Program-made: the position numbers and the translations under genes
The notes under the pieces: generated by a model
The model's input: the letters and a program-made list of their open reading frames with translations, nothing else
What the model was told of the DNA's origin: nothing
Databases searched by the model: none
Part shown: piece by piece, positions 15,548 to 43,399 of the stretch
Numbering within the stretch: the stretch's first letter is position 1
How the letters are laid out: every line of letters begins with the position of its first letter
DNA from: Emiliania huxleyi CCMP1516
Lineage: Eukaryota
Direction of reading: 5' to 3'
Assembly (NCBI RefSeq): GCF_000372725.1
Contig: NW_005201298.1
Location: 74,093 to 119,232, forward strand
DNA: 45,140 nt

Positions 15548-17893
15548 CGGCGGCGGCCCCGCGCCTCGGCGAGACGCTGCGTCGGCGCTGGGGGCCGAAG
15601 AGGTGATCGACTTGGAGGCGGCCAACGGGGTCGGTCTCGGTGCGAGCGGCAAGCCGCTGCTGCCGGGCGAGCTCGAGGCGAGGCAGCAGCGCAGGCCGAG
15701 TTGGGTTCGGGGCCAAGAGGCTTCGACGAGCTTTCCCGGAGCCCCTCCCTTAGCTCTCCCGTAGGCGCCGCTCGGCTGGGACACGGCCTGGCTTCGCGAG
15801 TCCAAGACAACGCGTGCATGACATGTACATGTGCATGACATGTACATGTCCCTAGGCGCCGCTCGCCTCGCACGTCCCTCGAGGCATGTCCACGACACGT
15901 CCACGACACGCCCACGACACGTCCGGGACACGTCCACAGGCGCAGCTCGTGGACGCTACGCGCGTCTCGATCGACCGAAGAGACTCCCGAGGAGCAGCAC
16001 TACCGCCTCGCGGAGAGCGCGTTTTGCCGCGGCGGAGGGGTGGCGGCGCAGATCGCAAGCATCGACTACCACTTCCACCCCGCTCTCGAGGCCGCGCTGG
16101 CAGAACACAAACCCCACTCGCGGGCAGAGGACGCGGCACAGGACGGGGCACACGCGCCAGTCCGCAGACACGGGGAGGAGCGGTAGTGACGCTCACCCCC
16201 TCCCAGAGAGCCATTCTGCGAGAGGCCGCCGTGTTCGCCCCGCTTGGCGGGGAGTCTATAAGCGACGACGGCATCAGGCGCGCTGGCACGCCAAGAAGGC
16301 GGACTACGACGCGACGTACGGCCCTGGCAACCACACCATCCTCTTAATTAACTATGAAGTGACTCTTGAGTGACTCTTCATTCACTCTTAATGAATAGGC
16401 AACCACACCATCCTCTTAATTAACTATGAAGTGACTCTTGAGTGACTCTTAATTAATTCACTCTTAATGAATAGACAACCACACCATCCTCTTAATTAAC
16501 TATGAAGTGACTCTTGAGTGACTCTTCATTCACTCTTAATGAATAGGCAACCACACCATCCTCTCAATTAACTATGAAGTGACTCTTGAGTGACTCTTCA
16601 TTCGCTCTTAATGAATAGGCAACCACACCATCCTCTTAATTAACTATGAAGTGACTCTTGAGTGACTCTTCATTCACTCTTAATGAATAGGCAACCACAC
16701 CATCCTCTTAATTAACTATGAAGTGACTCTTGAGTGACTCTTCATTCACTCTTAATGAATAGGCAACCACACCATCCTCTTCGCCTTCCACGGCACGCGG
16801 CAGGCAAACGTGCGCCCGATCCTGGCGGAAGGATTCAAGCTCTCCAAGGTCGAACTATTACTTAACCAACCATTCATTTATTATTGGTTACCTATTAATC
16901 ATCTCCAAGGTCGGCTCAACGACCGACCCGGGCTTCTACGGCGCGGGAATCTACTTTTCGGAGCAGCTGCAGATGTCGATGGGATACAACAGCGGGAGCG
17001 ACTCATCCTAGAAGCAGAGCACGGATTCTTGCATCCCAGCCAGCGCTCGAGAGGACACGTATTCAACGGTATTCAGCCGATTCCACTGTGGTTCACTGTC
17101 GCCCCTCGTATTCACGCGGCGCTCTGAAGACGCCGCACGAGACCGTCCTCCCGCCCTCATGTCGGCGTACTCACCCTGTAGGAACGACGGCATGTTCCTC
17201 TGTAAGCTCCTCGTTGGCAAGCCGTTCCTCGCGCCGCTGCAGCAAGGGCGAGGGCTTCAGGCGGGCTATACGAGCCACGTGTCGGACGCGAGCGGCAGCG
17301 AGGTGATCATGTTTGACGAGGCGCGAATTAACATCTCAATCACTCGTTAATTAGTTAGTTCATATGTTAATTAGCTCACCATGTGTGACGAGGCGGCGAT
17401 GCTGCCGCTCTACTTCGTCTTTCTGCGCCCCCAGGGCGCCCACGGCCCTCTCGGCCACCATCATGGCCATCTTGGCCACGCTGCGGCGGCAGCGCACAAG
17501 GAGCCGCTCAAGGGTCTCGGCGGCGGCGGCGGCGGCGGCGGCGGCGTGTTGGGCGGCCTGGGCGGCTTGGGCGGCGCCATCGGTGGAGCGATGCACACGC
17601 TCGGCGGCGCATTTGGCCTGGGTGGCGCCTCATCGTCGTTGCCGGCCGCCGCCGTCGGGGCTGCCGCCGCTCTCGCCGGCGGCGGTGGCTGGGGCGCGGG
17701 CAACGTGCTGGGCGGCGGCAAGAGGCCGCGGGCGGACCACGACGCCGCGGTCGTGGCGCGGCTGCTGAGCGAGAGCCGTGGCGGCAAGGGCCGCCCGCGA
17801 GGGGCGGCCGGGCGCGCGGAGGGCGCGGAGGGCGCGGAGGAGGAGATGGTGCGCGAGGCGATGCGGCGGAGCTTGCTGCCGGGAGGGCGGTAG
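14976..17893 (+). CDS. FHA domain, PARP-type ADP-ribosyltransferase and C-terminal UIM-like protein (~600 aa)
   Basis: Exons 14976-15719, 15765-15811, 15940-16090, 16278-16326, 16763-16848, 16910-16995, 17182-17320, 17393-17893 are in frame. FHA: VVVGR...SISREH. ART: FAFHGT, ILAEGF, GFYGAGIYFS, MFLCKLLVG, SEVIMFD. UIM-like: EEEMVREAMRRSL. Confidence 0.85.
16327..16762 (+). repeat. Six tandem 72-bp units forming one intron of the PARP gene
   Basis: Units start at 16327, 16399, 16475, 16547, 16619 and 16691. Each begins (G/A)CAACCACACCATCCTC, the start of the next exon, and ends AATGAATAG. Confidence 0.95.
16996..17181 (+). mobile_element. Introner-like element, copy 1 (PARP gene intron)
   Basis: Shares CCTAGAAGC, CCCA.CCAGCGCTCGAGAGG, CGTA.TCACGCGG and CCGTCCTCCCGCCCTCATG blocks with introns at 19250-19505, 22768-22982 and 40663-40840. 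Confidence 0.7.
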
Positions 17894-18451
17894 GCGGTGT
17901 TTTGCTCGATTTCAGCTTGCTGCAGCCTGCAGGGAGGGCGGTCCACACACCCTTGGCAGGAGAGGTACCGCACACTCACAGGGTACAGAACCCTAACCCC
18001 TTCCTATGTTCTTCACAGTCTCTTACAGTCCGGCCCCTCTCTTCGGTTCATCCCACATCCGGGCACCCGGGGGAACGAACAACGATCGTCGATCCACAAA
18101 ATCAAAAATTCCCTTACGGCTTTATATTGAGTTTCTCACGCCGCGCATTTTCGGTTTCTGGCGCCAGTCTTGCCGTTCTTATAGATCAGTTTGGACATGC
18201 TCGATGGAAAGAGTGTGCCGTGCGCCCCGAGAATGCCGACATGCGTCGAAAAGGGACTGCGCGGCGTATCTCATCCATCCAACGCGGGCGCACGAATCAC
18301 ACTCGATTGCCCTGCTCTTCCGGCCGATACCGCTCCCACGAGGCGCCAGCAAAGACAACCGGCCGCTGCGCCGCACATGGCGACGGGGCGTCTCGGGGGG
18401 TCTTGGGTACCTTGCCGGGCGGCGCGAACCGGCGCAAGCAAGAGGCCCCGC

Positions 18452-21400
18452 TCAGCCCCTGTAGCGCGCAGCGGCCGCCGCCGCCACGGCGGCCGCGGCC
18501 GCGGCGGCGGCGGCGAGCGCAAGAGCGCCCGCCGACGGCGCCTGACTCCACGCCGCCACCGGGCCCTTGTCGGCGGCGCGCTTGGCCTTGTCCGAGAGGA
18601 TGGCGGCGGCGGCGCTGTCACGAGACGCCTTTGCGTTGCGTCGGCCGGCGCGCGATCACATGAGTATATGAGTAGCAGTCCCAGACTAGCAATACTCCCC
18701 AGACGCCTTTGCGTTGCCCGGCCGGCGCGCGAGCTTGAGGGCGCGCGCGTCGAGATGCGCCTCCACGTCGGCGATAGTGACGCCGGCGGCGACGCAGCGC
18801 ACGAGCGCGAAGAAGAGGAGGTCGGCGGCCTACCATTAATGAACAACTCTCATTAATTAATATTAACTGATATACCCGAGATGACCCGCGACTACCCGAG
18901 GTCGTCCTCAGTTTAAGGAAGAGGGGGTGGGCGGCCTCAGAGGCGATGTGGAGGTAATCTCGGGTGATCTCGGGTAATCTCAGGTAATCTCGGGTAATCT
19001 CGGGTAGTCTCGGGTAATCTCGGGGATTTCGGGGAGGAGGTCGGCGGCCTCAGAGGCGATGTCGTCTGGCTCCTCTGCCTCTGCCAGCTCCTGCGCCTAG
19101 ATGATCCGAGATGCCCCGAGATGCCCCGAGATGCCCCGAGATGACCCTCCGCCTCTGCCAGCTCCCGCGAACCTCTTCCACAAGCTTGGAGCGGAGGAGG
19201 GTCGAGTCGTCAAAGAGCCGCTTGGTGTACGAGCCGGCCGGCGCCGAGCCTGCGGTGTGAGTGCGCCGGCATGAGGGCGGGAGGACGGTGTCGGGCAGAG
19301 TACTTGTGGCACCGCGTGAGTACGAGGGAGGCGAGTACAATGTGCACAGCGGAGTGCGGCCGAGTACGGCGGAGTCCGTGTCGTCTCGAGCGCTACCGGG
19401 AGCACAAGAACACGGCTCCGCTCCTCCCCGCTGCCCCTGCTCACGAGATATGGGGAGATACGGGGGAGATACGGGGAGAGATTCCGCTTCTAGGGGCCGC
19501 CGCGCCGCGCCGCGACTGCAGCGTCTCCTGCAGCGCGCGTAGGCCGCTCGGGAAGCCCCAGCACGTCAGCGTGCCTGCAGGGGCAGCACGAGACACTACT
19601 GACTGGCAGTGGCCCCACCGCATAGCATGACCCCCCCCCCCCCCCAGCAATGTCAGCGTGCCTCGGTGGCAAAAGGATGGCGGCGAGCCGTACTGGCGGA
19701 CAGTGAAGCGGAGTGCGTCGCCGTCGGAGTCGACGGCCACACGGCAGAGCCGCTGCCACGCGCCTACTCCCATCGACAGTCTCTTCAACCTCTGAACCTT
19801 CACTCGCGCGGCAGAGCCGCTGCCACGCGCCTACTCCCATCGACAGTCTCTTCAGCCTCTGAACCTTCACTCGCGCGGCAGAGTCGCTGCCACGCGCCTA
19901 CTCCCATCGACAGTCTCTTCAACCTCTGAACCTTCACTCGCGCGGCAGAGTCGCTGCCACGCGCCTACTCCCATCGACAGTCTCTTCAACCTCTGAACCT
20001 TCACTCGCGCGGCAGAGTCGCTGCCACGCGCCTACTCCCATCGACAGTCTCTTCAACCTCTGAACCTTCACTCGCGCGGCAGAGTCGCTGCCACGCGCCT
20101 ACTCCCATCGACAGTCTCTTCAACCTCTGAACCTTCACTCGCGCGGCTGAGCCGCTGCCACGCGCCTACTCCCATCGACAGTCTCTTCAACCTCTGAACC
20201 TTCACTCGCGCGGCAGAGTCGCTGCCACGCGCCTACTCCCATCGACAGTCTCTTCAACCTCTGAACCTTCACTCGCGCGGCAGAGTCGCTGCCACGCGCC
20301 TACTCCCATCGACAGTCTCTTCAACCTCTGAACCTTCACTCGCGCGGCAGAGTCGCTGCCACGCGCCTACTCCCATCGACAGTCTCTTCAACCTCTGAAC
20401 CTTCACTCGCGCGGCAGAGTCGCTGCCACGCGCCTACTCCCATCGACAGTCTCTTCAACCTCTGAACCTTCACTCGCGCGGCAGAGTCGCTGCCACGCGC
20501 CTACTCCCATCGACAGTCTCTTCAACCTCTGAACCTTCACTCGCGCGGCAGAGTCGCTGCCACGCGCCTACTCCCATCGACAGTCTCTTCAACCTCTGAA
20601 CCTTCACTCGCGCGGCAGAGTCGCTGCCACGCGCCTACTCCCATCGACAGTCTCTTCAACCTCTGAACCTTCACTCGCGCGGCAGAGTCGCTGCCACGCG
20701 CCTACTCCCATCGACAGTCTCTTCAACCTCTGAACCTTCACTCGCGCGGCAGAGTCGCTGCCACGCGCCTACTCCCATCGACAGTCTCTTCAACCTCTGA
20801 ACCTTCACTCGCGCGGCAGAGTCGCTGCCACGCGCCTACTCCCATCGACAGTCTCTTCAACCTCTGAACCTTCACTCGCGCGGCAGAGTCGCTGCCACGC
20901 GCCTACTCCCATCGACAGTCTCTTCAACCTCTGAACCTTCACTCGCGCGGCAGAGTCGCTGCCACGCGCCTACTCCCATCGACAGTCTCTTCAACCTCTG
21001 AACCTTCACTCGCGCGGCAGAGTCGCTGCCACGCGCCTACTCCCATCGACAGTCTCTTCAACCTCTGAACCTTCACTCGCGCGGCAGAGTCGCTGCCACG
21101 CGCCTACTCCCATCGACAGTCTCTTCAGCCTCTGAACCTTCACTCGCGCGGCAGAGTCGCTGCCACGCGCCTACTCCCATCGACAGTCTCTTCAGCCTCT
21201 GAACCTTCACTCGCGCGGCAGAGCCGCTGCCACGCGCCTACTCCCATCGACAGTCTCTTCAGCCTCTGAACCCTCACTCGCGCGGCAGAGTCGCTGCCAC
21301 GCGCCTACTCCCATCGACAGTCTCTTCAACCTCTGAACCTTCACTCGCGCGGCAGAGCCGCTGCCACGCGCCTACTCCCATCGACAGTCTCTTCAACCTC

Positions 21401-23813
21401 TGAACCTTCACTCGCGCGGCAGAGTCGCTGCCACGCGCCTACTCCCATCGACAGTCTCTTCAACCTCTGAACCTTCACTCGCGCGGCAGAGTCGCTGCCA
21501 CGCGCCTACTCCCATCGACAGTCTCTTCAACCTCTGAACCTTCACTCGCGCGGCTGAGCCGCTGCCACGCGCCTACTCCCATCGACAGTCTCTTCAACCT
21601 CTGAACCTTCACTCGCGCGGCAGAGTCGCTGCCACGCGCCTACTCCCATCGACAGTCTCTTCAACCTCTGAACCTTCACTCGCGCGGCAGAGCCGCTGCC
21701 ACGCGCCTACTCCCATCGACAGTCTCTTCAACCTCTGAACCTTCACTCGCGCGGCAGAGCCGCTGCCACGCGCCTACTCCCATCGACAGTCTCTTCAACC
21801 TCTGAACCTTCACTCGCGCGGCAGAGTCGCTGCCACGCGCCTACTCCCATCGACAGTCTCTTCAGCCTCTGAACCTTCACTCGCGCGGCAGAGTCGCTGC
21901 CACGCGCCTACTCCCATCGACAGTCTCTTCAGCCTCTGAACCTTCACTCGCGCGGCAGAGTCGCTGCCACGCGCCTACTCCCATCGACAGTCTCTTCAAC
22001 CTCTGAACCTTCACTCGCGCGGCAGAGCCGCTGCCACGCGCGCCAGACGAGTCGCCCTTCCGCCAGAGAGAGCGGCGAGAGCGGGACCAGTAGACGCCGC
22101 GGCCGGAGCGGAGCGCGGCGCAGACGGACTCCGCCGTCGAGTAGACGAGGCCTGAAGAATGAAGAATGCGGACCCCCTCTTGGTAACGAGCTCATTCATG
22201 GCTCGGGCCCCGTCGGCGAGGAGGCGAGGCCGAGGGCGACGCCGCCCTCCTCCTCCACCACCTATGGTGGTTGCACTCTTCCGCGTCGCAACCGCCTGTG
22301 ACATCCGTACCGCCGCCCTCCTCCTCCACCGTTGAGAGCAAGCCATCCGGCCGGTCGGACCGCACCGCCGCGGCCAGCGCCTGTGGACATGGCTGGGACA
22401 TGTCGTGGACATGTCACGGACATGTCGTGGACGTATCGCGGACATGTCGTGGGCGTGTCGTGGACATGTCGTGGGCGTGTCGTGGACATGCACATGTCGT
22501 GGACATGTCGCGGACGTGTCGCGGACGTGTCGTGCACATGTCGCGGGTGTGTCGTGGACCTGGCCGAGGGCATCTCGTGAGAGTGTGTGTGGTCTCCTCG
22601 TTGGAGCACCTATCCCCACACCGAACGTCTCGCGCATGCTCCCACTCCTACCCCTCGTGCCACTGCCCCTCTCCCCTTCTCGCCATTGATACGCGCCTGT
22701 CCCGCGTCGATCAGCTCTTCTCCGCCCGCAGGCGCCTCCGCAACGTCCTCCGCCCGCCGCCAGAAGCCTACGTTGTGATGTGAAAACTGCGTTGAGACGA
22801 CGCCGACGGGAGGGCGTGAAGACGGCAACTTGTGGCAGCGTACTCAGAGCACCGCGTGAGTACGGGTGGGGACGAAAGCAGCGAACACATCCGCATCCAG
22901 CGGCATACAGCCGAGTGCGTCTCCTCTCGAGTGCTGGTTGGGATGCATGAACACGTATTCCGCTTCTAGGGCCAGAGTCCGCCACTAACCGACGGCACCG
23001 GTGCGGCCGCGGGCGTCGGCGCCGCCACCCGCTCCGCCCGCCTCGGGAGGGGGCCGAGCGATGCCGGGGCCGCGAGGCCGAGGTTGAGGGCGTGGAGCTC
23101 GGCGAGCCTAACCAGTTGGGCTCGCACTGGTCGAACTTAATTAAATTCGTCCCCAAAGTCCGAGGGCGAGGGCGTGCACGCTCGGCGCGCCGGGCCAGGG
23201 AGGGGGAGAGCGACGCTCCGGAGACCACGACCAGCAGCCGGTCCGTCGCCGCGAGGCTGGCCGACACCCGCTTCAGCAGCGCCGCGTCCGCCGCCGCGTC
23301 TGGAAGGAGGAGAAGGACGCCGGCGGCGGCGCCGACGGTGTGGGGCCGCTCGCACTCGCGGCAACCGGAGCCGGTCTTGGCGGCGAGAGACTCGAGTGCG
23401 AGAAGGAGCTGCTCAGACGTCGTCTCGGCTGCAGGAGAGAGGACGACGAGCAGGCGCTCAGCGGGCAGCGCCGCGTCCTTGGCCGCCTGGCGCACTGCCG
23501 CGCACAGCTCCGCCGGAGGCGTCGCGGGGTCCGGAGTGAGCAGCGCGTACAGCGCTCCGGCATGAAGCCACTCCCGCGCCTTGGCCGCCTCGTCCAGCCG
23601 GAAGGGGCCGACCGCGCAGCCCGCGCTGCGCAAGAGCGCGACGCGGGCAGCCGACGGCGGCGAAGCGAGCTCGGCTTCGCTCAGCCAGCAGACGAGGCAG
23701 CTGCCGAGGCCGAGGCGGCGGAGCACCTCGTCGTCGCTCTCGCCGGCCGCCTCGCCCTTGATGAGAGGCGAGAGGGACTTCGTGCGGAGGTCAACCACTG
23801 GCCAGAGCACCAT
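18452..23813 (-). CDS. hisIE: Bifunctional phosphoribosyl-AMP cyclohydrolase / phosphoribosyl-ATP pyrophosphatase with a His4-like N-terminal extension (~534 aa)
   Basis: Exons 23813-23191, 23107-22983, 22767-22697, 22380-22330, 22261-22231, 22151-22044, 19763-19662, 19574-19506, 19249-19173, 19096-19049, 18829-18707, 18628-18452 are in frame. Motifs: SDRPDGLLSTVV, LGLVYS, YWSRSRRSLWRKGDSSG, DSDGDAL, FCHRGTLTCW, GSYTKRLF, KLVEEAQEL, EAADLLFF. Confidence 0.92.
19250..19505 (-). mobile_element. Introner-like element, copy 2 (hisIE intron), with an inserted 10-mer repeat
   Basis: - strand: CCTAGAAGCGGAA...AGCGCTCGAGACGACAC...CTCGTACTCACGCGGTGC...CCGTCCTCCCGCCCTCATGCCGGCGCACTCAC..CAG. Confidence 0.7.
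19764..22043 (-). repeat. 34 tandem 67-bp units forming a 2280-nt intron of hisIE
   Basis: Unit on the - strand: GCGCGTGGCAGCG(A/G)CTCTGCC-GCGCGAGTGAAGGTTCAGAGGTTGAAGAGACTGTCGATGGGAGTAG. 2280 = 34 x 67 + 2, and the units are nearly identical. Confidence 0.95.
22768..22982 (-). mobile_element. Introner-like element, copy 3 (hisIE intron)
   Basis: - strand: CCTAGAAGCGGAATACG..TGCATCCCAACCAGCACTCGAGAGG...CGTACTCACGCGGTGCTCTGA...CCGTCTTCACGCCCTC. Confidence 0.7.
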
Positions 23814-24833
23814 TCGGCGCGTGGTCCACCTCGCTATCGGCTCGGTGCTCGCGGCAGATCGGCGGGCTCCGAAGGTTTTCTTTTTGCAAAGGATGCTAGA
23901 ATTCGTTGTCCGAGCCTGGCTGTTCTTCACCTTCCTAACTGGAGCACTTGAGCACTGGATAGGGTCGATTCCGCATGGTACGGGACCCCTCGATCGTCTC
24001 GCCCTCCCTCACTGGTGTGTTCATTGGGGGGGTCATAACAAACACGGTACAGGATCGAGGTGCACGCTGCTGAAGCAGTGTCGTCCCCTCTCTCCCCAAC
24101 GGCGATGGCGGTGTGACCGATCGAGCTACAAGAGGAGCTTGTTCAGCAGGATCTGGGATAGTCTGGCGCACTACCTCACTGGGCCTGAGACCGCCGAGAC
24201 AGCATCCCATCACCCCTCCGGGCTTAGCTAACTAACTAAATAAAGCGCACTGCTTACCATGTGCGCTCGTGGATGGAGTCGCCCCGCTGCAAGGACGACA
24301 TCATCATTGACGACGACATCGAGTGCATGTACAACGCCACATGCCGCGTGGCGATGTTCAAGGCGCTATTTTGCCTGCCCCCTGCCCGCCCTTACCGATG
24401 TCTGCACCTCGGGCTCGGAGCGCTTGCCTCCCGGAGTGCAACTACCCGCCGCCCTCGCCGCCCCCGCCCTCGCCGCCAGAATTCGTGATGGCGTGAGTGG
24501 AGTGGGGAAGACAAGCAGGGGAAGTCGGAAGACAATACCCCTAGTTCAAGAAAAAGAATTAAACCACGAAACAGAAAAAGAAAGCACCTCGCTGTCGTAT
24601 TGCCGCTGTCGTAAACTCGGTGTGGACCCTGTCCTCCTCCCCTACCCCTCATTTGGGTTGGGTCTGTTTTCTTCCTCTCTTTTTTCGTAAACTCGAACGA
24701 GAAGCTGAGGCCTGTAATTACCGAACTAAAAAGTAAAACTTCCACTCCGAACGTACTGTATTTCCGTTAGCAAATGACAGCTGGATTCGTTAAACGCATT
24801 CGTATTCTGTTGGAGCCACCTACCCACGCTCTT

Positions 24834-27557: not shown

Positions 27558-29230
27558 GCGGTATTTGAGGACCACCGCCACTCTGAAGTTCGGCCGGGTG
27601 GTCTGCAGACCCCCCCCCCCGGAGCAGCAGAGGCTCCGTGGGGTTGAAAAGTCGACGCTGGGAGTCGCACTCGTCAAACCGTCTCGCAACACCACGCGGT
27701 CCGCACGTACCGCCCACATCCCCTCCACCACTGAGAAGGCGCAGATCGACCGCCGGGCCGCGTAGCCGTCGTTAAGGAGCGGTTTTTGGAGCCGTACGAA
27801 GAGGTCCCAGACGGGCGAAGATGCGGTTTTTCGACGACCACACGCGATGTGGTGTCTGCTTTTTGCTAAAAACGGGCCGCCTAGTGCAGCATCACTAGTA
27901 CAACACGCAACCACACTGAGAGCTCCACACTAGCCGGTATAGGCGAGCCCCGGCGGCCTCACCGTCGCCGCTCGCGGCGGAGCCGACGGCGGAGCCACGG
28001 GCCGGTGCGACCTTTTGGGGGGGCATGAGCTCGCCAGGACGTCACCGATGGCTCGGCGCGCCTCTTCCCGCCAGCGCGGGACGGCCTGCCTACAGGAGGG
28101 AGGGGGGGGAGACGGAACTGAGCCCTAGGTTCGTGATCCTATGGCCGGCAAGGGCTGGGAGAGGGGCGGCAAGCGACGGGCGGGTGAGCGACCTTTTGAG
28201 CGCCCATGCAACGGTGGCATAAAGTGAATGATACACCGTCGCACGTGTGCTGATTCTAGATCGCACGCAGTGGCATATCACTTGGGTAGGACCGCAGCGC
28301 GCGTGTGAGAGGTCGAGGTCGTCGTGTTCTCTGCGCTTTGTTTCTCTGTTCTACCGGAACATGGTCGTGGGGCATGGGCCCTACTGCGAGGAGGGAGAGG
28401 GAGGCGAGGGGGGGGGAGAGGGGGGGGGGAGGGGAGTGTGAGGGGTACGGGGGCGAGGGCATGGAGGGGGAGAGGAAGAGCAAGGGCGAGAGGGGGCAGG
28501 GGACGGGTCGATGGCATACTAGGGGGGGCAGGGTGGTGGGCGGCGATCGCCGCATACCGTCCTATGGACAAGGACGTCGACGTGCATGCCAGCTGCTGTT
28601 GTTCGAGTCGTTCGGTGGGTTCGGCGGAAGGGGGTCGGCGAGATCCGCTCTGGAGGGCGGCGAACGCGCTGCAGAACAAGCTGACGCGGGCCCAGTACCT
28701 CGATGAGGTGACTTGGACCACCAAGAGCTGGGTGGGGCTGCAGAAGCAGCGCATCTCAGTCGTAAGGTTCTTCACACGGCCATCGCAGAGCAGATTGTGG
28801 ATGAGCTTGCCTGGGCGGCGAGGGCGGTCGAGTGCACGGAGCTAAGTGCCTCGCCGTCCTCGCCGGCGGGAGTCGCTTCTAGGCGGCTCCCGTGGTGTAC
28901 CTGTGTTAGTGCCAGTGCGCGCCAGTCCCGTGCCTAGTGTCGTGCGGGGGAGTTTTTGTAAAATTCTCTTTTCGGTGGTGGGGATGTCGGGGTGGGGAGT
29001 GGGTCTGGGTGGGCGCCGGAGTGGGAGTAGTGTGACTGCTCCTGTGGTGCGGGCGACGGCTTCTGAGGAAGCCGTCGCCCGGCGCGCCTCGCCTATCGCG
29101 CGAATCGTGTCGTGCGACCGCCTTTTGTTGTAAACTAAGGTAGGTAGGTAGAAAGGTGAAGAAAACAACAGCCAGGCTCGGACTGGACACCAACGCGATT
29201 TTCTTGTAAACTAAAAGGAGGAACCCCTGT

Positions 29231-30391
29231 CAAGGAGTGTCTAGAATAGGTTACTATTCATGATTAGTGCTCTGAATAGTGAGGTTGCAAAACTATTCAG
29301 ACCTGAATAGAGGCACTCACAAGCTATTCAACTCATGACTAGAATGACCAGCTCTGACCCTCGATTCATGAATACTATTCAAGATGCATGCGCTCTCCCG
29401 GCGCCCTTCGCCCTTCGGCACTCCGCTCTCGATCACTACGGCTAGTTGCTGCCAGCCTGCACCACGTAGCCCTGATGGTGTACTTGCCCCGCGCCGCGCC
29501 CATGCTGTTCAACGTGCGCGACGCCTCGGTCAAGTAAGCAAAAATTGGAGGCCGCTCCTCCTCGTGCGTGACCTTGACCACCGCGCCGCCCGCGGCATCC
29601 GCGCCGCCCGCGGCATCCGCGCCGCCCACGGCTCCATCGCCAGAGGCATCAGCAGCGTCGCCCACGGTAGCAGCAGGGTCGACCTCATCAGGAAAGAGCT
29701 TGGTGCGCACGGCCGCTGGCAGCTCCGAGCGGTTCTCGTAGTAGTAGTACTCGAGGAAAGGGTTTGGGTAGCCGATCATGAACTCGCTGCCCGACGCGAC
29801 GCCCGGCTCGAGGCTGCCGCGGCCGTCCTCGCCCATCTCCTTGCACGAGAACCCCGCTCCCTTGACGCCGTCGCCGTAATCGTGCAGCGCCGAGAACTCA
29901 ACGACGGCACACTTGAACCGCTTCTCCTTGTCGGCCGCCGGGCAGCCATTCCAGAACTTGCCCGGCGCGGAGATGTACTTGCCGACAGCGGTGGCCGGCT
30001 TATTGAGCGTCGGGTAGAAGGCAATGGCCGACTGCTTGCTGGCCTTGCTCGAACGCTTAGGCGGCATGGGTGATGCGATGGCGCGATGGACGGACGGACA
30101 CGGACCAAAATAAGCTTAGAATTGACATTTCTGTCGCAGGTGCGGGTGCGAGCCCGTGGGTGCTATACTGCAGGGTGAATACTTACTTCCTGAAGTAACT
30201 TCATGATTCAGACAGACACCGACACGTGGCCTCACGCAAGTCTGAATAGTTCGAATGATCTGACTACTCTCCCTAATGAACTATTCAAGTCTTGAATCTT
30301 CTTGAATAGTGAGGTTGCAAAACTATTCAGACCTGAATGGGAGAGCTGCGAGCCTAATCAGATCATTCAGTTCTAATCAAGATACTCCTTG
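29231..30391 (-). mobile_element. Non-autonomous hAT-type DNA transposon, 1161 bp
   Basis: TIRs CAAGGAGTGTCTAGA (29231) and TCAAGATACTCCTTG (ending 30391), 13/15 match. Perfect 8-bp TSD ACCCCTGT at 29223-29230 and 30392-30399. A subterminal 36-bp repeat TGAATAGTGAGGTTGCAAAACTATTCAGACCTGAAT occurs near both ends. Confidence 0.88.
29375..30067 (-). CDS. ORF inside the hAT element, probably a truncated transposase N-terminus or cargo
   Basis: 230 aa ORF starting MPPKR with coding-like codon bias, wholly within the TIRs; no DDE core is present. Confidence 0.5.
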   Translation of the reverse strand: MPPKRSSKASKQSAIAFYPTLNKPATAVGKYISAPGKFWNGCPAADKEKRFKCAVVEFSALHDYGDGVKGAGFSCKEMGEDGRGSLEPGVASGSEFMIGYPNPFLEYYYYENRSELPAAVRTKLFPDEVDPAATVGDAADASGDGAVGGADAAGGADAAGGAVVKVTHEEERPPIFAYLTEASRTLNSMGAARGKYTIRATWCRLAATSRSDRERSAEGRRAPGERMHLE

Positions 30392-30783
30392 ACCCCTGTA
30401 AAATTCTGTTGAGGGCCCTCGTACGCAGTGTGGACGCGCGCCGCCCAGCGGCGAGCGAGCGTGCTCGGAGTTGGGTCGGCGCGCGCGCGGGCGGACGGCG
30501 CCTGTAAACAGACAGCCTGCCCGCCCACTCGTTCAAAATGTCAAAATCCGTTCACACACACACATTCTTAGTGGCAACTCCGTGCACTGACGGTCGGCCG
30601 CCAGAAAACACGCCTCCGTGGCTCGGGTTACACCAATTCTCGCTACCCAACGCGGCCAAAGGATATCCACCTCGAGAACCTCGAGAACACACTCTGATGA
30701 GCAAATTCTCTATTTTGCTTGCTCGGCACTGCCTCCCAGCAGCGCCCAGCCTGCCCCACGCTACCTCCCGCGGGGTGCGCCGA

Positions 30784-32548: not shown

Positions 32549-33000
32549 GTGTCGCGACCGCCGCCGCGAGGCTCGTGGCGATGGAGGCGCCGGCGCCAGC
32601 ATGCGCCGCCTCCCTCAACGCCCGAAACTCGGTCACAGCCGGGGGAGCGACAGCGGCAGAGATGCGGGCCGCTGGCGACCTCACACGGCGCCAAGCGCCG
32701 TAGAGGTAGCCCCGAGAGACGCAGCTGGGTGTGTCGCGACCGCCGCCGCGAGGCTCGTGGCGATGGAGGCGCCGGCGCCAGCATGCGTCGCCTCCCTCAA
32801 CGCCCGAAACTCGGTCACAGCCAGCGGAGCGACGGCGGCAGAGATGCGGGCCGCCGGCGACCTCACACGGCGTCGCACGCCGTAGAAATGACCCCGAGAG
32901 ACGCCGCAAGGTGCGTCGCGACCGCCGCCGCGAGGCTCGTGGCGATGGAGGCGCCAGCGGCAGCATGCGCCGCCTCCCTCAACGCGCGACACTCGGTCGA
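32549..33000. repeat. ~182-bp tandem repeat, about 2.5 units
   Basis: GTCGCGACCGCCGCCGCGAGGCTCGTGGCGATGGAGGCGCC recurs at ~32551, ~32733 and ~32915. Confidence 0.9.
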
Positions 33001-33847
33001 GGCTGGCTCGAACTGCTCGAGGCCAGCTGCCTGACTTGTATTGACAGCGAGTGTGTCGCCACTCGCTCCTGATCACACGTTGAGGGGGGCGTGGACATGT
33101 TAGCCCTCGGCAGCTGCGATGCGCACACACCTGTCGCACGGATCCAGCGGTGGTGGCGATATGCTGCTCGGCGAGCCAAAGAGAGCGTGCCACCGAGAGC
33201 GTGCCACCGAGAGCGTGCCACCTAGAGCGGAGTGCGCCGCCCTCCGCAGCGGGAGTCGGTTGCGGGTGGTGCAGCGGCGCCGTGATAGAACAACAGGCGC
33301 CGGCTCGGCACGCTGAGTGCACACGCGACGCGTCGCGCGTGCACGCACTGCTCGTGCAGCGCCAAACAGCGTCCGCCAGCGCAGAGAAAGGAGCCCGTGC
33401 CGACTCGTGCACGCCTGCGACAGCTCGAGCGGCTCAGCGCGAGTGCTGGCTCACATCCGGTCGGCTCACAGTGCTTGGGCAGCCAGGCTCACCGTCGGCG
33501 AGAGCAGCTGCGAGCGACACCACGTCGAGCCAAGGCGACGCTTTCTTCCGTGGCCGCCGCGGCTCGTTTCCGCCACGCGGTGGGGTGCGGCGGAGGCCGA
33601 GGCGTGCGCCAGCCGCGCTCGAGACCAGCAGGCGGCCTGGGAGGGCGCTCACACGCCGCGACGACCTCGGCGAAGCGAGGCGTCGCGCCAGGTCATTCAC
33701 GGTTATGCATAGACTAGTGTGGGACCTGCGGCGGTACCCGTCTCTGTTGTTCGGGCAGTGAGAGACGCAGGATCTGCACGCCAAAGTGGGCCACTCATTT
33801 GCATTTTGGTTTTGGGTTGTCGGAGATCATCCATCAGCACTCATGTC

Positions 33848-34040
33848 TCATCAGTCAGTCACGTCAGTCAAAGCAGTTCGTGGCACTCATCAGTCAGTCA
33901 CGTCAGTCAAAGCAGTTCGTGGCACTCATCAGTCAGTCACGTCAGTCAAAGCAGTTCGTGGCACTCATCAGTCAGTCACGTCAGTCAAAGCAGCCGTGGC
34001 ACTCATCAGTCAGTCACGTCAGTCAAAGCAGTCGTGGCAC
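33848..34040. repeat. 39-bp tandem repeat, about 5 units
   Basis: CTCATCAGTCAGTCACGTCAGTCAAAGCAGTTCGTGGCA is repeated. Confidence 0.92.
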
Positions 34041-35282
34041 GTGGAGCAGTCGCTGCATGCAACGGCGCCGCCACACGCTCCGGACGACCCCGACAACCGA
34101 CACACCACGCACAATGGGAGGCTATCGCGCACGATCGGGCATCGCGCCGCAAACAACTCGCCGCACAGATGGGGGGGGAGGCAGAATCCCACACACACCG
34201 GAGCAGCACAGACACCTTACACGTCAGCGCTCGCTCGATGTGGCCGGCGCTCTCCCCTCGGTCCTATCTCGCCTTTTCAACGGCGGCGTGCGGCCACGCG
34301 CCGCGCCGAGCCGGTCTCGGCGGGAGACCTCGGAGCCGCACGCGATGCGGGCATGCGCGATGGCTCCGTTGGCTCCGTGCCTAAGGCAGATCGATTAGGG
34401 TGTGAGCTGCGGCAGCCACCGTTTCTGTACCCGCTCGATCACGTGCAGGCCGTCGGAGGCCGCGCTGGATGGCCCAGGGCCGGCGGCGGTGAAGGCGTCC
34501 GTCGATGAAGGGATGTCGTCGAGGGAGCCATCGTCCTACGCGGACGGTGCACCGGTCCAGTTGTCGGAGTCCGAGATCGCAGTCGCCCGTTGAAGAACTC
34601 ACGGAATGTGAGCGACTTGGTGCACGCTGGGTCGAGCATCATGACTCGCACCTCATCCTGGGCGAGGAACTCGCCCAGGGACCAGCTGTTGGCGTCGCCG
34701 TTTTGATCGAGCTGCATCCACTGCATGGTTTCGTAGTCAAGCGTAAACGCCCAGGAGTTGGTGCCTGGGTGACTTGCTGATGAGAGCGCCTTCCAGGCGG
34801 GTAGTCGTGCCCCTCACCTACGGTCATACGGCGGCGTCAGAGGGGGGGAAGGGGCGCGAAGCGTGAACATGGAGGCAAGCAGGTTGGATTCTGCACCTGG
34901 CCAAAGCCGGCGACCTCGAAGTTGTCGTAGCTTGTGCGGATATCGCTGAGCGTGAGAGGGACCGGATCGGCAGCAGCATGGGCGGCCGCGTCAGCGGCCG
35001 GAGAGGCCGGAGAGCCATCCGACGGAGGCCGGTCGTGCATCGGCGCGTCAGCCGCAGGGGCCGGGGGGGCGGCGGCATCCATCGCTGCGGGTCGCTGCGG
35101 GCCGACGATTGTGGACTGATCGATCGTGGCGGGCGGATTTCGGCTGGGACGTTCTACGGTTAAACCAAGAGCGTCGGCGCCGACACGAGAGACTTATAAG
35201 GGTAGAAACGCGGCGGTATTCTTCTTTACCTCACTCCTGGAATCCTATCACGCGTTCCGAGAGCGGGGGCATCTGTGGGTAA

Positions 35283-35819
35283 ATGTTGCACTTACTGACC
35301 GCGGCCTCTTCGGCCTGGCTTCGGCCCGCCCTAGCCTCGGCCCGATGCGAGGGAGCGCTGTCGACGCACTGTCCACGGGCGGCACGCATGTCGTTGGCTA
35401 ACGGTTCTCCCTCCACCGACCCGAGCCTCGTGGCCCGAGCTGAGGCAGCAGCGGCAGCACAGATGGAGGCGGCTAGAGCTGCAGCTACCGACAGGCTGGT
35501 GTCTCTCAAACGCGAGGGTGCAGCCGCAAAGGCTGTCCGCGAGGAGGGGCGGGCGTTTCTCGCGGAGGCTCGGGCGGAGGTTGGAGTGATGGCTGAGGTG
35601 GAGGCTGAGGCGGCGGCGGCGGCGGCGGCAGAGGCAGAGGAGGTGGCGGCGGCGGCGGAGGCGGCGGCGGCGGCGGCGGAGGTGGAGGAGGTGGTGGTTG
35701 CGGCGGAGGCGGAGGCGGAGACGGAGGCGGAGGCGGAGGCGGCGGCGGCGGTGGCGGAGGAGGAGGCGGAGGAGGTGGTGGTGGCGGCGGCGGCGGAGGC
35801 GGAGGCGGAGGCGGCGGCC

Positions 35820-35856
<37 letters not shown>

Positions 35857-36828
35857 AGAAGGAGGAGGTGGTGGTTGCGGCGGAGACGGAGGCGGAGACG
35901 GAGGCGGAGGCGGAGGCGGCGGCGGCGGCGGCAGAGGAGGAGGCGGAGGAGGTGGTGGTGGTGGCGGCGGCGGAGGCGGAGGCGGCGGAGGAGGAGGCGG
36001 CGGACGCGGAGGAGGCTCGGGAGAAGGCGGCGGCGGCGGCTAGGGCGGCGGCGGCAGTGGCGGCGGCGGAGAAGGCGGTGGAGAATGCCTTGGTCGCGCA
36101 AGCGGTGGCGGCGGCGATGGTGGCGGAGGAGGGGCTTCAGCCTGAGGAGCCGCCTCAGGGCGCCGCCGCCTCTTTGACCGCCGCCTCGGTCGTAGCGCCC
36201 GCCGCACAGTCCCCCCTCGCGCCCCTCCTGCGAGAACAGCTCGCGCAGGCTCGCCCCGCTCCCCTGCGGAACCCCGATGGCCGAAGCGGCTCCTCCTCCC
36301 CACACGCCGGAGATCGCCCCCGCGCCAGCAGGCTGGGCTGCTAGACCCCTCTACCCTCTCCGACGCCGAGCGCCAGGAGGTCCTCGCCGCAGCGGCAGCC
36401 GGCACCCTGCTGCTGCTGCTGCTGCCAGTCTTTGATGCCGGCCTGGCGGGTGCCTGGGGCGCGGGCCCGCCGTCTGCCGCGTGGGGGTTGGGGCCGCTCA
36501 GGGGCTGCGCACGCCGCATAGGTGACCTCTCGCTCTCGGCGCTCTTCGGGGGCGGCGCCGCCTCCGTGGCCGCATTGCGCGAGGGGCCGGCCGGGCAGCG
36601 CTTGCGCGACGCTGCTCGCGGTGCACACCACATCTGCTGTTCGAGTAGGAGTGCTGGGGTGCTCGTCTCGCAGTTGGCGGCTCAGTTGCTCTCTCCGCCT
36701 CCGTTGCAGGCGCCGTCGACAAGGCGGTCGAGGTGGAGAAGCAGTATGAGCTCGGGAGCCAGGCGACGGCGAAGTACAAGGAGTGGGTTGCAAAGGCGAC
36801 CAAGGCCGTGGGTGAGCTGGTTCGGTGA
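35283..36828 (+). CDS. Ala/Glu-rich protein with an N-terminal targeting peptide and C-terminal TM segments (possibly plastid)
   Basis: N-terminus MLHLLTAASSAWLRP, then a long A/E tract. Later spliced exons encode AAAGTLLLLLLPVFD, LSALFGGGAAS and AVDKAVEVEKQYELG..., with stop TGA at 36826-36828. Junctions are approximate. Confidence 0.55.
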
Positions 36829-37935
36829 GGTGTTCGTCGGAACCAACGCCGGCTCCTTGAATCTCACTCTCATCTCCCCCGTCGACCCTCGTCCCCGAGG
36901 CACCTGATAGATACGCTGTCGCAGGAGCCTCTCGTCGGTGCCCGCTCACGTGCCGGCACCACGCCAGAGGTACCTTCTCGCATGACGCCCCGAGCCCAAT
37001 AGGAGGGCCAACTCTATCGGTGGCACCCCCTTTCATGTTAGCACTTTGTGGGGGAGTATTGGGCTCGGTTGGGCGCGTGTCGTGGATGTGTCCCACGACC
37101 CTTTTTTTTGGGCGTCTTTAAAATCCGTGTGTGAAGCTCACTGTGTGGTGGAGAGGAACACATCGAGTGGGGCTGAGGAAGCTCTTCGCTGGGTGGAAGG
37201 AGGCCCGGCCAGCCTTGAGGGAGTCGCGGAGGAGGAGGGATAACGCAGAAAAGCCGAAGCCCAAGGTCCGCGCTCCACAAACCCCCGAAACCCAAGGTCC
37301 GCTCCGCTCCGCGCTCTGCTGCGCCACTCACGGGGGTTAAATTTATTTGCGCCTGACGTCCGACGGCGCACTACTTGACGTCGGCCAATCTACTGAAGGC
37401 GCGCATCTTCCTCGCGCTGTTGCACATGACGAGCACTGAGTGACAGATAGACGCAGGTTGTGACGCGCTGTTTACGGTTTCCAGTATACATGGTTAAAGC
37501 GTCCATGCCATCCACTTTTACACACTTAAACCGACCAACCCCCCCAAAAGCCGTATGATATATAGAGAGAGCGGAAACGCCGCCCCTGTCTGATGCCGGG
37601 ACGACGAGCTGCTACACCCAGGAGAGCCGCCCTGCTCCTCCCTGGTTCTGCGGTCACACCACACACGCGCGCAAAAGTCGGGTGTCACTACTCAACTAGG
37701 CTTTAGCACGATAGCTCCTCTAAGCAACAATGGTCAAAACAATGGACATTGAATTCACAAAAACACACACCTGCCGAGGGCCCTCCACCTCCAGCCTCCC
37801 CAGCGCAGGAAACAAACGCAGCGAAATCAATAACTAGACAGTGGACATGCGAGAAACAGCTTCTTGATGGCATTAGACAGACAGAGAGCAAGAGTGAACC
37901 ACGGTAGAACTACCGCCGTCCAGAGCGGTGCCCGG

Positions 37936-38800
37936 CTAGAAGTTGGCGCGCTTGAGGATGATGTCAATGGCTTCCAAGGCGTTTGGCGTCTTCAATGCGT
38001 TGGCGACGTGTGTTGCATCGCAAGGGTAGTCTGGGGTGCAGTCGAACCAGATGGAGCCCGCGGCAGTTTTGCACTGCTTCAGAATCTTGACCGGGTCGAC
38101 ACTCTCTTCCGGGATGCCAGCTCCTGCAGCCACTATGGTCTGGATGACGTCAGTGCATGGATTAATGTGACGCATGTTGCAATTCGAGTAAGCGTCGCCG
38201 ACCGAGCGAAGGTTGGTCCAGCCCACGCCGACCGAGCGAAGGTTGGTCCAGCCCATGCTTGCCATGCTCCGGAACTTCTTCTCGCAGGTCTCATTGTCGA
38301 CTGCGTAAAGGAGGCTCTTGACATCCTTGAAGGCGCTGATGAAGCCCTGCTGCGAGAAGATCTGGTCGCAATCCTCATCGGTAGCGTACTCCGTGTCAAG
38401 GGCGACCGCATTGGTCATCTTGATCTTTGCCGACCAGTCGGATCGGGCGTTCCAGTACGGGGCGTTCCAATCCTTAACTGAATTTGACACTGCGAGCACG
38501 ACGACGGCCCAGCATGCTGGAGCGCCGTGATGTCCGACGTGGAAACCCCGATGTCAACAATCACGCCCTTGAGGCCCGTAGCCTTGATGGCAGCCCACGT
38601 CGCCTGGAGGTCATTCGGTTTCCCGCCCAGCCAGACGAGGCCAGAAGGAAGAAGGGAGTCCGAAGGGCTTGGCGGCGTTGGCGTGGCCGTGGCAGTAGCC
38701 GTTGTCCTGGCAGTACGTGCCCGAGCACTCGTCAGCGACTGGTGCGGCGAAGGCGAGGACAGCAAAAGATCCGGCGAGAACGAGCTTGGCGAGCATCATG
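37936..38800 (-). pseudogene. Secreted Cys-containing protein, apparently frameshifted
   Basis: Signal peptide MMLAKLVLAGSFAVLAFAA. Coding-like sequence passes through three overlapping frames (38611-38898, 38415-38765, 37936-38499) without evident introns. Confidence 0.4.
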
Positions 38801-39454
38801 GTTTCTGCGCCAAAGCGCAGTCGTGAGCTTGTTGGTGAATCACAGAAGTTATTAGTGCGAGCAAGGATGCAAATCCCTGGTGTGGCCGTTTTTTTCATCA
38901 GATTGACGTGCTATCTGGGGCGATCCAGATCCATCCAGCTATCTCGTTCTATCTCGTGCGATCTCGCGGCGATCTCGCATACGACGCATCTCGCATAAGA
39001 CTATTCCGCCGTATATCATGCACTCTCTTCAACCGCGGCCCGAGACAATCCCGTCGCAATCACTGTACTCCGAGTAGTCTTTGTATCGCGTTCAGACGCG
39101 TTCCACTTTAGCCGATCAACCGGCGCGCGCTCCTCGGCGCGGACGACTCGGACGGAGGCGCCCCCCGCCGCAGCAGGGGGGGGGGGGGGGGAGGGGGGCT
39201 ATCTGGCGCTATCTGGGTTCTGGCGCTATCTGGCTATCTCATTCTATCTCATTCTATCTCGTTCTATTTCGTGTCGATCTGACAAAGAAACCGGCCAGAC
39301 TAGGGCTATGCACGGCAAGGCTGGGTGAGCGGCTTGGTGACCGAGGTGCATCAAGACGAGCTACTCGAGCTAAAGATCCACATACTCGATCGAGTACACG
39401 TCACGGAACGGAAGGAGGGTTTGCGCACGTCGCGGTCGCAGCGTGTCTCACGAG

Positions 39455-41128
39455 TCACACGCTACACGTGCGGTGGGAGGGGGACCCAGTGTGGTCCAGA
39501 GTCCGCCGCGCGGTGCGTGCTGCGCGATAGGTCGTCGACGGTGAAGTCGACTCTCGCGCCAAGCACTCCGACTCTCGGGCCCCCCACTCCAACTCCGCTT
39601 CCAGCCGGTCGACGAGATCTCCAAAGTGCTGTCGCGGGAAGATGAGCCCGCGGCGCTCTGCAATCAGCTCGATGAGCTGCGGGCCGGCGAGCGGCGGCGA
39701 GGCCTGCTGCGGTACGTGCTGCGGCCCCTTTCCGCGCGAGAGGTGTCTGCCCGCGGCGACGCTCGGGTCGAGCGCGGCGATGACGGCGAGGCCATACAGG
39801 CCGAGCACGACGTCGACGAGGAGGGCCTTGTCCGCCTCGTGCGTAAAGTGGCCGTTGAACACGTTGACCGACTCCTCGATCCACCGCCGGCGGGACGAGA
39901 GCTGGGAGAGGGAGGAGTCAAAGACGTACATCTGCGCCGACCCGTTGATGGCCATGAACGCCCACTGCTCGAGTCGGCACCACCCGCGCTGCAAGTACGT
40001 GTCCGCGTCGACCTTGCAGGGCGGGCGCGAGTCCTGGTGGAGCGCCTCGGGAGCGCAGGCGAGGAAGTAGTGCGAGCAGGCGGCGTAGAGGGCGATCGAG
40101 CCGATCGCGAGCCGCTTGGTCGTCGTGTTCTCCTGTGGTACTGCGGCGGGGCGGCGAGGGCGAGAGGCGGNNNNNNNNNNNNNNNNNNNNNNNNNNNNNN
40201 NNNNNNNNNNNNNNNNNNNNNNNNNNNNNNNNNNNNNNNNNNNNNNNNNNNNNNNNNNNNNNNNNNNNNNNNNNNNNNNNNNNNNNNNNNNNNNNNNNNN
40301 NNNNNNNNNNNNNNNNNNNNNNNNNNNNNNNNNNNNNNNNNNNNNNNNNNNNNNNNNNNNNNNNNNNNNNNNNNNNNNNNNNNNNNNNNNNNNNNNNNNN
40401 NNNNNNNNNNNNNNNGGGGGGAGGGGGGCGGTAGCGCACTCGAGTGGTAGTCGAGCCAGATATGGAGCGACTCGGGGTCGAGGCCTTGCCTCGCGCAAAG
40501 CGCCTCGGCCGCCTCGAGGATGGCTGGGTAGTGCTGCGCCTTGGGGTCCGGGTGGTGGCGAGAGAGCCACTGGTGCGAGACAAACATGACGGGGAGGCCG
40601 GCTGCGAAAGCCACCGCCGACTCGACGGTGTCGCAGAAGCGGAGGGCACCAGCGTCGCGCGCCTTCGTCATGCACACGCCAGCATCAGGGTGGGAATGCG
40701 GTTTCGTGCGCGCATTCAAGCATCGTGTGATACAAATACAGCCGAATGCAGCCGAATACGGCCGAATGCAGCGGAGTGTGCGCCCTCTCGAGCGCTGGTT
40801 GGGAGACAAGAAGACGTGTTCCGCTTCTAGGACCGCGCGCCTCCTCGTACGAGACAAGGCGGCCCTGCTCGCGTAGCTTCGAGAGCGGCATCACCGCGAG
40901 CGGAAACTCGAGCGTCGTGACGCCCGTCACCGCCTGGCGGATGCGTCTGTCCTTCTCGGCGCTCTCTCGCTCAACCTAAGGTAAGGCAAGGCCAGGTCAA
41001 CTTCTCCGCACACACGAGGTGGTGGGGCAAGGGCCAAGCAGTCCCTCGCGGCCCCACGTCTAGAAGACAGGAGCCCCGGCATCAAAGTGCAAGGCCCGGT
41101 GCGCGTGGGTGAGCGGTGTGTGTGTGTG

Positions 41129-41186
<58 letters not shown>

Positions 41187-41274
41187 TGTGTGTGTGTGTG
41201 TGTGTGAGTGTGTGTGTGAGTGTGTGTGTGAGTGTGTGCGTGAGTGTGTGTGTGTGTGTGTGTGAGTGTGTGAG

Positions 41275-42370: not shown

Positions 42371-43399
<1,029 letters not shown>

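What the first reader, a model, noticed from the sequence alone, without database searches (positions are those of the whole stretch)
16996..40840. Introner-like family: one homologous element forms introns at four unrelated sites
Seen: introns 16996-17181 (+), 19505-19250 (-), 22982-22768 (-) and 40840-40663 (-) share ordered blocks CCTAGAAGC(GGAA) and (CCCA.CC)AGC.CTCGAGA. The first three also share CGTA.TCACGCGG and CCGTC.TC.CGCCCTC. All are in sense orientation to the host gene. CCTAGAAGC starts 9-12 nt after the donor, and those first nucleotides resemble the next exon start, like a target-site duplication that supplies the donor. Established: introners are intron-generating transposable elements known from algae such as Micromonas and Aureococcus. 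Inference: this is an older, diverged introner family; four copies in 45 kb would imply a very large genomic copy number.
Basis: partly seen in the sequence, partly recalled or inferred. Interest (0 to 1): 0.85.

Follow-up and report, generated by a model that had tools for sequence, protein, structure and literature searches.

The report
High-copy intron-making transposon in an alga
A 180-base repeat, found at five places here and at more than 90 other sites in ocean DNA, sits inside protein-coding genes between short copies of the gene's own sequence and is spliced out where tested; it is likely an old jumping gene that made new introns, probably thousands of them, in what is likely a coccolithophore alga.

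Summary
The finding holds. A profile built only from 62 independent metagenome copies finds the four sites plus a fifth, gap-cut duplicate (E ≤1e-26). Transcript-type contigs of three studies skip e1 (GA-AG) and e2 (GC-AG) exactly. Genomic read-through proteins of paralogues lack the e4 insert. e3 has no RNA test. A metagenome scan hit its 120-locus limit (93 distinct sites). The ~180-nt element has imperfect inverted ends (CCTA…TAGG) and a fixed-offset target duplication: 32 of 73 sites match ≥6/8 against 2.1 by chance. The duplication supplies the donor and the element the acceptor. Most copies are sense (43 of 49); one antisense copy favours an 8-bp duplication. Copies are ~82% like their consensus while alleles are ~99% alike, so the burst is old. 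It is a MITE-type introner like the 8-nt classes of Polarella and Aureococcus. Host likely Emiliania/Gephyrocapsa huxleyi (recalled traits), whose published introner families are 37–70 nt, not ~189. No transposase was found and no genome was held. The scan earlier noted a different haptophyte family (e1-2577349), not this one.

The parts
16996..17181 (+). Intron e1 (186 nt, GA..AG, phase 2) in a gene with a PARP-like catalytic motif (motif recalled; Pfam gave no hit on the two short exons)
   Evidence: Joint 16994->17181 (3 letters ambiguous) in X1, X5, X12, not in X15; open frame after removal, stops if retained in frame
16996..17006 (+). Donor G plus 5' copy of the target duplication, 2 nt longer than the family norm; 6 of the first 7 nt match the next exon start (17182-17188)
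   Evidence: Sequence; family offset of 9
17007..17182 (+). Element copy e1, CCTAG..TAGG; its last G is the first base of the next exon; branch-point-like CTCAT at 17156-17160 (branch role inferred)
   Evidence: HMM 1-179, E 4.7e-42; consensus column conservation
19250..19505 (-). Intron e2 (256 nt, GC..AG, phase 1); element from 19494, with a duplicated 5' end and 10-bp tandem repeats between the two starts (about 19481-19425)
   Evidence: Joint 19247->19504 in X1, X5, X12, not X15; HMM E 5.8e-35; allele L102 254 of 256 alike
22768..22982 (-). Predicted intron e3 (GC donor 22982 or GA donor 22979; acceptor 22768); element 22970-22787 plus a 19-nt tail with a second AG
   Evidence: HMM E 8.1e-40; duplication 6 of 8 at offset 9; only the 22768 acceptor keeps the upstream frame; allele L068 213 of 215 alike; no RNA test
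22039..22146 (-). Exon of the likely host gene of e2 and e3: phosphoribosyl-AMP cyclohydrolase (histidine synthesis)
   Evidence: Pfam PRA-CH, E 2.4e-10, profile 3-37 of 74; that e3 belongs to the same gene is inferred
40663..40840 (-). Intron e4 (178 nt, GC..AG, phase 0); element 40831-40662; duplication 6 of 8
   Evidence: HMM E 5e-37; paralogues P0007, P0008, P0009, P0010 read YEEARD without a break
42371..42486 (-). Fifth copy e5, cut by an assembly gap; tandem duplicate of the e4 locus
   Evidence: HMM 1-102, E 1.1e-26; 259 of 260 nt alike with the e4 region

Best explanation
These four introns are copies of one ~180-base high-copy element flanked by a fixed-length duplication of coding sequence, and the element is likely an old non-autonomous cut-and-paste DNA transposon (MITE-type introner) whose insertions became introns. 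Shown: family, copy abundance, fixed offset of the duplication, imperfect inverted ends, splicing of e1 and e2, empty sites in e4 paralogues. Inferred mechanism: a transposase made elsewhere binds the inverted ends (CCTA..TAGG, with nine GTATTC-type and three GAATAC-type subterminal units) and cuts the target 8 bp apart. If the base before the target is G and the target starts with C, T or A, that G plus the first duplicate is a GC/GT/GA donor. The element's own end supplies TAG as acceptor, and its last G replaces the lost G, so the mRNA and protein stay unchanged. Both ends read TAG|G, so either orientation can splice; a branch-point-like motif about 22 nt before the sense end would explain why most survivors are sense. 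The burst is likely old and finished: copies have drifted about 18% from consensus, toward GC.
For: Duplication: mean 5.1 of 8 against 2.7±0.15 in 2000 re-pairings; ≥6/8 in 32 of 73 against 2.1 (max 8); site-specific excess only at positions -8..-1; offset 9 in 37 of 47 clear cases. Donors of those 32: GC 22, GT 6, GA 4. Ends: 13 of 17 complementary with the terminal G, 4 of 17 without; 9.4 against 5.0 per copy in 66 copies. Coding context: 43 of 49 sense, both flanks in the same phase in 41 of 49, control 13 of 14; same Pfam family continuing across the insert in L007, L024, L088; 16 of 16 neighbouring copies co-oriented. Antisense copy L013 in a sulfatase gene (PDB 1fsu, E 0.00037) has donor G|GT, acceptor TAG|G and an open frame. 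Star-like tree (87% of length terminal, 3 of 64 nodes supported), alleles ~99% alike.
Against: No transposase or long autonomous copy was found, and none could be sought genome-wide. The inverted match is partly made by the internal repeat units: an internal window scores 11 of 17. 41 of 73 sites match the duplication at ≤5 of 8, and e1 and e2 have an offset of 11. The 8-bp against 9-bp call rests on end symmetry and one antisense copy without RNA test. 15 of 59 sites could not be called for strand and 5 were called antisense, 4 of them weakly. Empty sites are protein-level, from paralogues at 74-85% identity, not alleles; DNA-type run X15 showed no empty site at e1 or e2. The scan pattern fixes the 5' end, so 5'-truncated copies were not sampled.
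Confidence: 0.85

Rival explanations
1. Same introner, but mobilised by a Mutator-like enzyme with a 9-bp duplication (G plus 8 nt); the element then ends at the AG and is one base asymmetric.
For: All 32 clean sense sites have G at -9 and 31 have G after the AG, so in sense copies 9 bp fits as well as 8 bp plus G. 9-bp duplications are typical of Mutator-like elements (recalled).
Against: The ends pair only with the G included (13 against 4 of 17). In antisense copy L013 the -9 base is C while the base after the AG is G, so that G is not duplicated host sequence unless it mutated.
Confidence: 0.1
2. Introns made by repair of staggered breaks or by retroposition (SINE-like), with an existing intron captured as filler; no transposase.
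For: Such footprints exist next door: 5 of 8 RNA-supported junctions in 16790-19730 have exact repeats of 10-17 nt with other fillers; 21 of 125 matches carry a duplicated 5' end with tandem repeats.
Against: Fixed offset (37 of 47), constant 3' end (TAG|G 52, CAG|G 22, AAG|G 4 of 89), inverted ends, no tail in the consensus, no Rfam match, no stable RNA fold (z -0.7).
Confidence: 0.04
3. An ordinary MITE that inserted into pre-existing introns, or reverse splicing of an excised intron.
For: The element starts 9 nt inside the intron, not at the donor; alleles from other samples all carry it.
Against: The second duplicate is exon sequence, the element reaches the acceptor, and genomic read-through paralogues have no intron at the e4 site. 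Reverse splicing leaves no duplication and no antisense copy.
Confidence: 0.01

Closest known systems
Polarella glacialis introner-like elements, classes 6, 8 and 10, and Aureococcus anophagefferens introners (bioRxiv 10.1101/2020.10.14.339549, passages; Huff et al. 2016 not held, recalled)
   Same: 8-nt target duplication, one splice site carried by the element and the donor recruited at the duplication, introns in either orientation with a bias to one, GC/GT/GA donors.
   Different: There the 8-nt duplication itself starts with the donor G (GHN6); here the offset is 9, so the donor G likely lies just outside an 8-nt duplication and the element's last G replaces it. Far older: terminal branches about 15% against medians of 0.9-3.8% quoted for two P. 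glacialis classes. No sequence comparison was possible.
Published Emiliania huxleyi CCMP1516 introner families (PMC9860276 supplement tables 5 and 6; PMC12130899 dataset sd07)
   Same: Likely the same species (identification recalled); fam24 is also listed as 'co-opt 5', carry 3''.
   Different: Listed families average 70, 70, 37, 37 and 37 nt (19-308 copies; 653 in all) in 2022, and 5-45 copies in three families in 2025, mostly GT donors, mechanism unknown or LTR. This family makes ~189-nt introns with GC donors in 22 of 32. Its motifs are absent from the supplement text, but those tables hold few or no family sequences.
Micromonas pusilla introner elements (review PMC11282704, passages)
   Same: MITE-like, inverted ends plus duplication, perfect splicing, thousands of copies.
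   Different: 3-nt duplication; the element carries the donor and co-opts the acceptor, the reverse of this family.
hAT and other 8-bp-duplication DDE superfamilies (recalled)
   Same: 8-bp duplication, short imperfect inverted ends, repeated subterminal motifs in both orientations.
   Different: Ends are CC..GG, not the usual (C/T)AG.. start of hAT; no transposase to classify.

Membership tests
Introner (Gozashti et al. criteria) | At least four introns in non-paralogous genes with similarity reaching near both intron ends | tested here: met
   93 distinct sites; similarity from intron position 10 to the acceptor; unrelated Pfam families in the flanks
Introner (Gozashti et al. criteria) | Copies are spliced out | tested here: met
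   e1 and e2 joints in three studies; 2 of 4 window sites tested with RNA-type data, e4 by protein homology only, e3 untested
Introner (Gozashti et al. criteria) | Intron gain: site empty in homologues | tested here: met
   One site only: genomic read-through ORFs P0007, P0008/P0009, P0010 run through the e4 position; no empty allele at e1 or e2 in X15
Introner (Gozashti et al. criteria) | Genome-wide enrichment in genes | tested here: inconclusive
   No genome; in metagenome loci 39 of 59 called sense-coding, 5 antisense, 15 uncalled
MITE / TIR DNA transposon | Target-site duplication of fixed length | tested here: met
MITE / TIR DNA transposon | Terminal inverted repeats | tested here: met
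   13 of 17, best of all windows, but an internal window reaches 11 of 17
MITE / TIR DNA transposon | Short and non-coding | tested here: met
   Mode 170-186 nt; removal restores the host frame, e2-e4 lengths are not multiples of 3 and e1 has in-frame stops
MITE / TIR DNA transposon | Autonomous partner with the same ends | not testable with these tools
   No genome held; none seen in the window or the 120 loci
hAT superfamily | 8-bp duplication | tested here: inconclusive
   8 favoured over 9 by end symmetry and L013
hAT superfamily | Ends starting (C/T)A(G/A)NG (recalled) and a hAT transposase | tested here: not met
   Ends are CCTA..TAGG; no transposase seen; not filed as hAT
Published E. 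huxleyi introner families | Length 37-70 nt, mainly GT donors | tested here: not met
   Introns ~189 nt, GC 22 of 32; family sequences themselves not seen

The most novel reading that the evidence does not exclude
This one aged family made on the order of ten thousand introns (one copy per 8-11 kb in the two samples at hand), and with a second intron-ending family and the tandem-repeat-filled duplication introns it makes most introns of this coccolithophore insertion-born: a burst larger and older than any listed for haptophytes, missed by surveys of 8,716 genomes, and datable intron by intron from the decay of each duplication.
Probability: 0.35. Interest if true: 0.72.

Novelty: new member of a known kind. 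Interest (0 to 1): 0.52.

Why it matters
Surveys argue that transposons are the main source of new introns, but they see mostly young families. Here a family about 18% diverged still shows its duplication, ends and orientation rule, in a species that those surveys likely screened and credited with only small, short families. If it has thousands of copies, the share of introns owed to transposons is undercounted, and each copy gives a clock for how a new GC/GA donor, acceptor and branch point settle in. It would also explain part of the unusual non-GT donors of this alga (recalled trait) and help to correct its gene models.

Tried and rejected
No whole genome was held, so no genome-wide count. 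The family pattern found 0 matches in viral contigs. The look-up of sequencing runs listed no holder on record as RNA; the runs were judged transcript-type only because they show joints that X15 lacks. Depth over e1 in X15 (4611 and 1873 against 22-46 in single-copy bins) fits a repeat but is no copy number. e3 splicing has no RNA test; proteins P0006, P0012, P0013, P0015 are unspliced read-throughs and do not help. Target-site palindrome test: best mirror r 0.88 fits donor selection and codon phase as well, so not used. RNA fold of the consensus no better than shuffles (z -0.7); no Rfam match. Helitron reading (CTAG end) rejected: a duplication is present. CCTAGAAGC at 28883 is not a copy (no HMM hit). 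My first de-duplication merged unrelated copies through tandem-repeat flanks and was redone. The ORF in the inverted-repeat element at 29229-30393 gave no Pfam or Atlas hit, so no transposase lead. L013 exons: no Pfam or NCBIfam hit, only noise for one exon in PDB; the sulfatase call rests. Host naming: the only named eukaryotic relative was Chrysochromulina parva at about 40% identity. Not found in print in nine searches; Huff et al. 2016 not held; Repbase, the authors' GitHub family sequences and bioRxiv supplements were not visible and could list this element.
Full report
Setting. The window is 64.2% GC with four assembly gaps, a eukaryotic gene layout and GC-AG introns. A single-exon ceramidase is held in NCBI, UniRef and EukProt under a withheld name, and its only named eukaryotic relative was Chrysochromulina parva. 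GC content matches the 64.5% listed for Emiliania huxleyi CCMP1516 (PMC9860276 supplement). That the host is E. (Gephyrocapsa) huxleyi rests on this and on recalled traits (10-bp repeats in introns, GC donors); no tool named it. No genome was held.

The observation. A profile from 62 metagenome copies that are not alleles of window sites finds e1-e4 (116-139 bits) and a fifth copy cut by a gap (89 bits); five shuffles gave at most 7.2 bits. The fifth copy is a tandem duplicate of the e4 locus (259 of 260). e2 and e3 likely share one histidine-synthesis gene (PRA-CH exon between them).

They are introns. Contigs of runs X1, X5 and X12 (three studies; RNA by the tool's guess) skip 186 nt at e1 and 256 nt at e2; run X15 shows neither joint. 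The only canonical-type cuts are GA..AG (16996-17181) and GC..AG (19505-19250). Removal restores open frames at all four sites. For e4, four homologous proteins at 74-85% identity read YEEARD across the site. They run on into other introns, so they are genomic read-throughs, and the site is empty in three distinct paralogues. e3 has no RNA test.

The family. With the four window copies, 110 of 129 had a 3' block and flank, 106 of these ended in AG, and 93 sites were distinct; lengths peak at 170-186 nt. Among 66 full-length copies, pairwise identity averages 74% and identity to the consensus 82%. Alleles of e2 and e3 from other samples are 254 of 256 and 213 of 215 alike. The tree is star-like (87% of length in tips, 3 of 64 nodes at ≥0.95), and changes run from A/T to G/C (consensus 53% GC, copies 59%). 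This reads as one old burst that predates the sampled strains (inference).

The footprint. For the 73 sites without a repeat-disturbed 5' end, bases before the element match the next exon on one diagonal only: 0.64 at offset 9 against 0.21-0.35 at twelve other offsets. The mean is 5.1 of 8 against 2.7±0.15 for re-paired sites, and 32 of 73 reach 6 of 8 against 2.1. The site-specific excess covers positions -8 to -1 and nothing outside. Of 47 sites with a clear start match, 37 have offset 9. All 32 clean sites have G at -9: GC 22, GT 6, GA 4. e3 and e4 match at 6 of 8; e1 and e2 have gained 2 nt. The ends are complementary at 13 of 17 when the first exon G is counted to the element, 4 of 17 when not; an internal window reaches 11 of 17 because of nine GTATTC-type units, so the repeat is real but modest.

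Position and orientation. A codon model trained on 1,349 window codons (control 13 of 14) called 43 of 49 sites sense, with both flanks in one phase in 41 of 49; phases 0/1/2 were 19/11/13 (these 49 are the sites with ≥5 of 8 duplication and enough flank). A wider set gave 39 sense, 5 antisense and 15 uncalled of 59. Of 31 sense-called loci sent to Pfam, 15 had a hit on at least one side (one very weak), and L007, L024 and L088 hit the same family on both sides in order. Neighbouring copies in one locus share the strand in 16 of 16 pairs (17 printed; one is a split copy; three allelic loci left out). L013 is the exception: the gene is a sulfatase on the other strand (PDB 1fsu, E 0.00037), with a G|GT donor, the element's other end as TAG|G acceptor and an open frame. 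There the -9 base is C while the terminal base stays G, which favours an 8-bp duplication with CC..GG ends over 9 bp. This copy has no RNA test.

Mechanism. Shown: family, fixed duplication, inverted ends, splicing, one empty site. Inferred: a non-autonomous DDE transposon, cut 8 bp apart; survivors are those after a G and before C, T or A, which makes a donor; the element brings TAG, and its last G restores the exon. A conserved A 22 nt before the sense acceptor (88%) is branch-point-like and would explain the sense bias. The transposase is unknown.

Scale. Four independent copies in 44.2 kb and 16 extra copies in 131.6 kb of flank give one per 8-11 kb. Both samples are biased toward element-bearing genes. 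Carried to a 168-Mb assembly this is about 10^4 copies: an extrapolation, not a count.

Prior knowledge. Introners with 8-nt duplications, either orientation and GC/GT/GA donors are described for Polarella classes 6, 8, 10 and Aureococcus (bioRxiv 10.1101/2020.10.14.339549, passages; supplements closed). E. huxleyi is already an introner species: five families of 37-70 nt in PMC9860276 (passages; supplement rows; file cut when stored) and three of 5-45 copies in PMC12130899 (first of seven parts, passages and 14 supplement files searched). None fits a ~189-nt, GC-donor family, but I saw statistics, not their sequences. PMC11282704 (passages) gave the Micromonas model; PMC12166617 had none of my terms; 10.1101/2024.10.30.620910 (two passages) added nothing; Huff et al. 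2016 is recalled. Nine searches found no description of this family. The scan's index held no look-alike, only a different haptophyte family.

Verdict. A real MITE-type introner family, likely unlisted, notable for age and probable size; a new member of a known kind. Interest 0.52.

Noticed in passing
window 40996-41370 (-) and 42622-42890 (-); L003, L009, L028, L037, L063, L066, L071: A second repeat family: about 140 nt after a (CA)n run, ending at an AG acceptor in most loci that show the end, with the intron start resembling the next exon start (window, L063). It hit 7 of 120 loci, so it is likely a second high-copy introner.
   Followed up: partly
window 16840-19652: 5 of 8 RNA-supported junctions carry exact repeats of 10-17 nt across the splice sites, with tandem-repeat or AT-rich filler; similar introns at about 2090-2165 and 41600-41490. 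A separate route of intron gain by duplication plus filler.
   Followed up: partly
window 19481-19425 (-); L004, L044, L063, L102, L014, L065: 21 of 125 matches have a doubled 5' end with 10-bp repeats between. The same filler tail recurs at unrelated loci, so repeat-bearing subfamilies likely moved, or were converted, as units.
   Followed up: partly
window 19742-22040: An array of about 35 copies of a 67-bp unit (98-99% alike) splits the PRA-CH coding region; the unit includes exon-like sequence at the junction.
   Followed up: no
window 29229-30393: A 1.16-kb element with 21-bp inverted ends (86%), TGAATAG-type subterminal repeats, a likely 4-bp duplication and a 230-aa ORF without Pfam or Atlas hit; likely a deleted DNA transposon of another family.
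   Followed up: partly
window 40416-41900 and 42371-43400: The e4 gene is present as two near-identical tandem pieces between assembly gaps; may be uncollapsed haplotypes.
   Followed up: no
window 8117-8875 (+): Intron-less ceramidase (Pfam E 1e-31); its nearest relatives at 56-60% are marine metagenome proteins, one labelled Rhodopirellula MAG, while Chrysochromulina is at about 40%.
   Followed up: no
window 7470-7760 (-): Fragment that reads like the RNase H end of a copia-type retroelement (recalled motif, not tested), amid repeat pieces at 5560-6000 that recur at 24550-24690 and 44780-44900.
   Followed up: no
window 1-2728 (+): Translation initiation factor eIF5B/IF-2 gene (Pfam IF-2) with many tandem-repeat introns flanked by exon duplications; none holds this family.
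   Followed up: no
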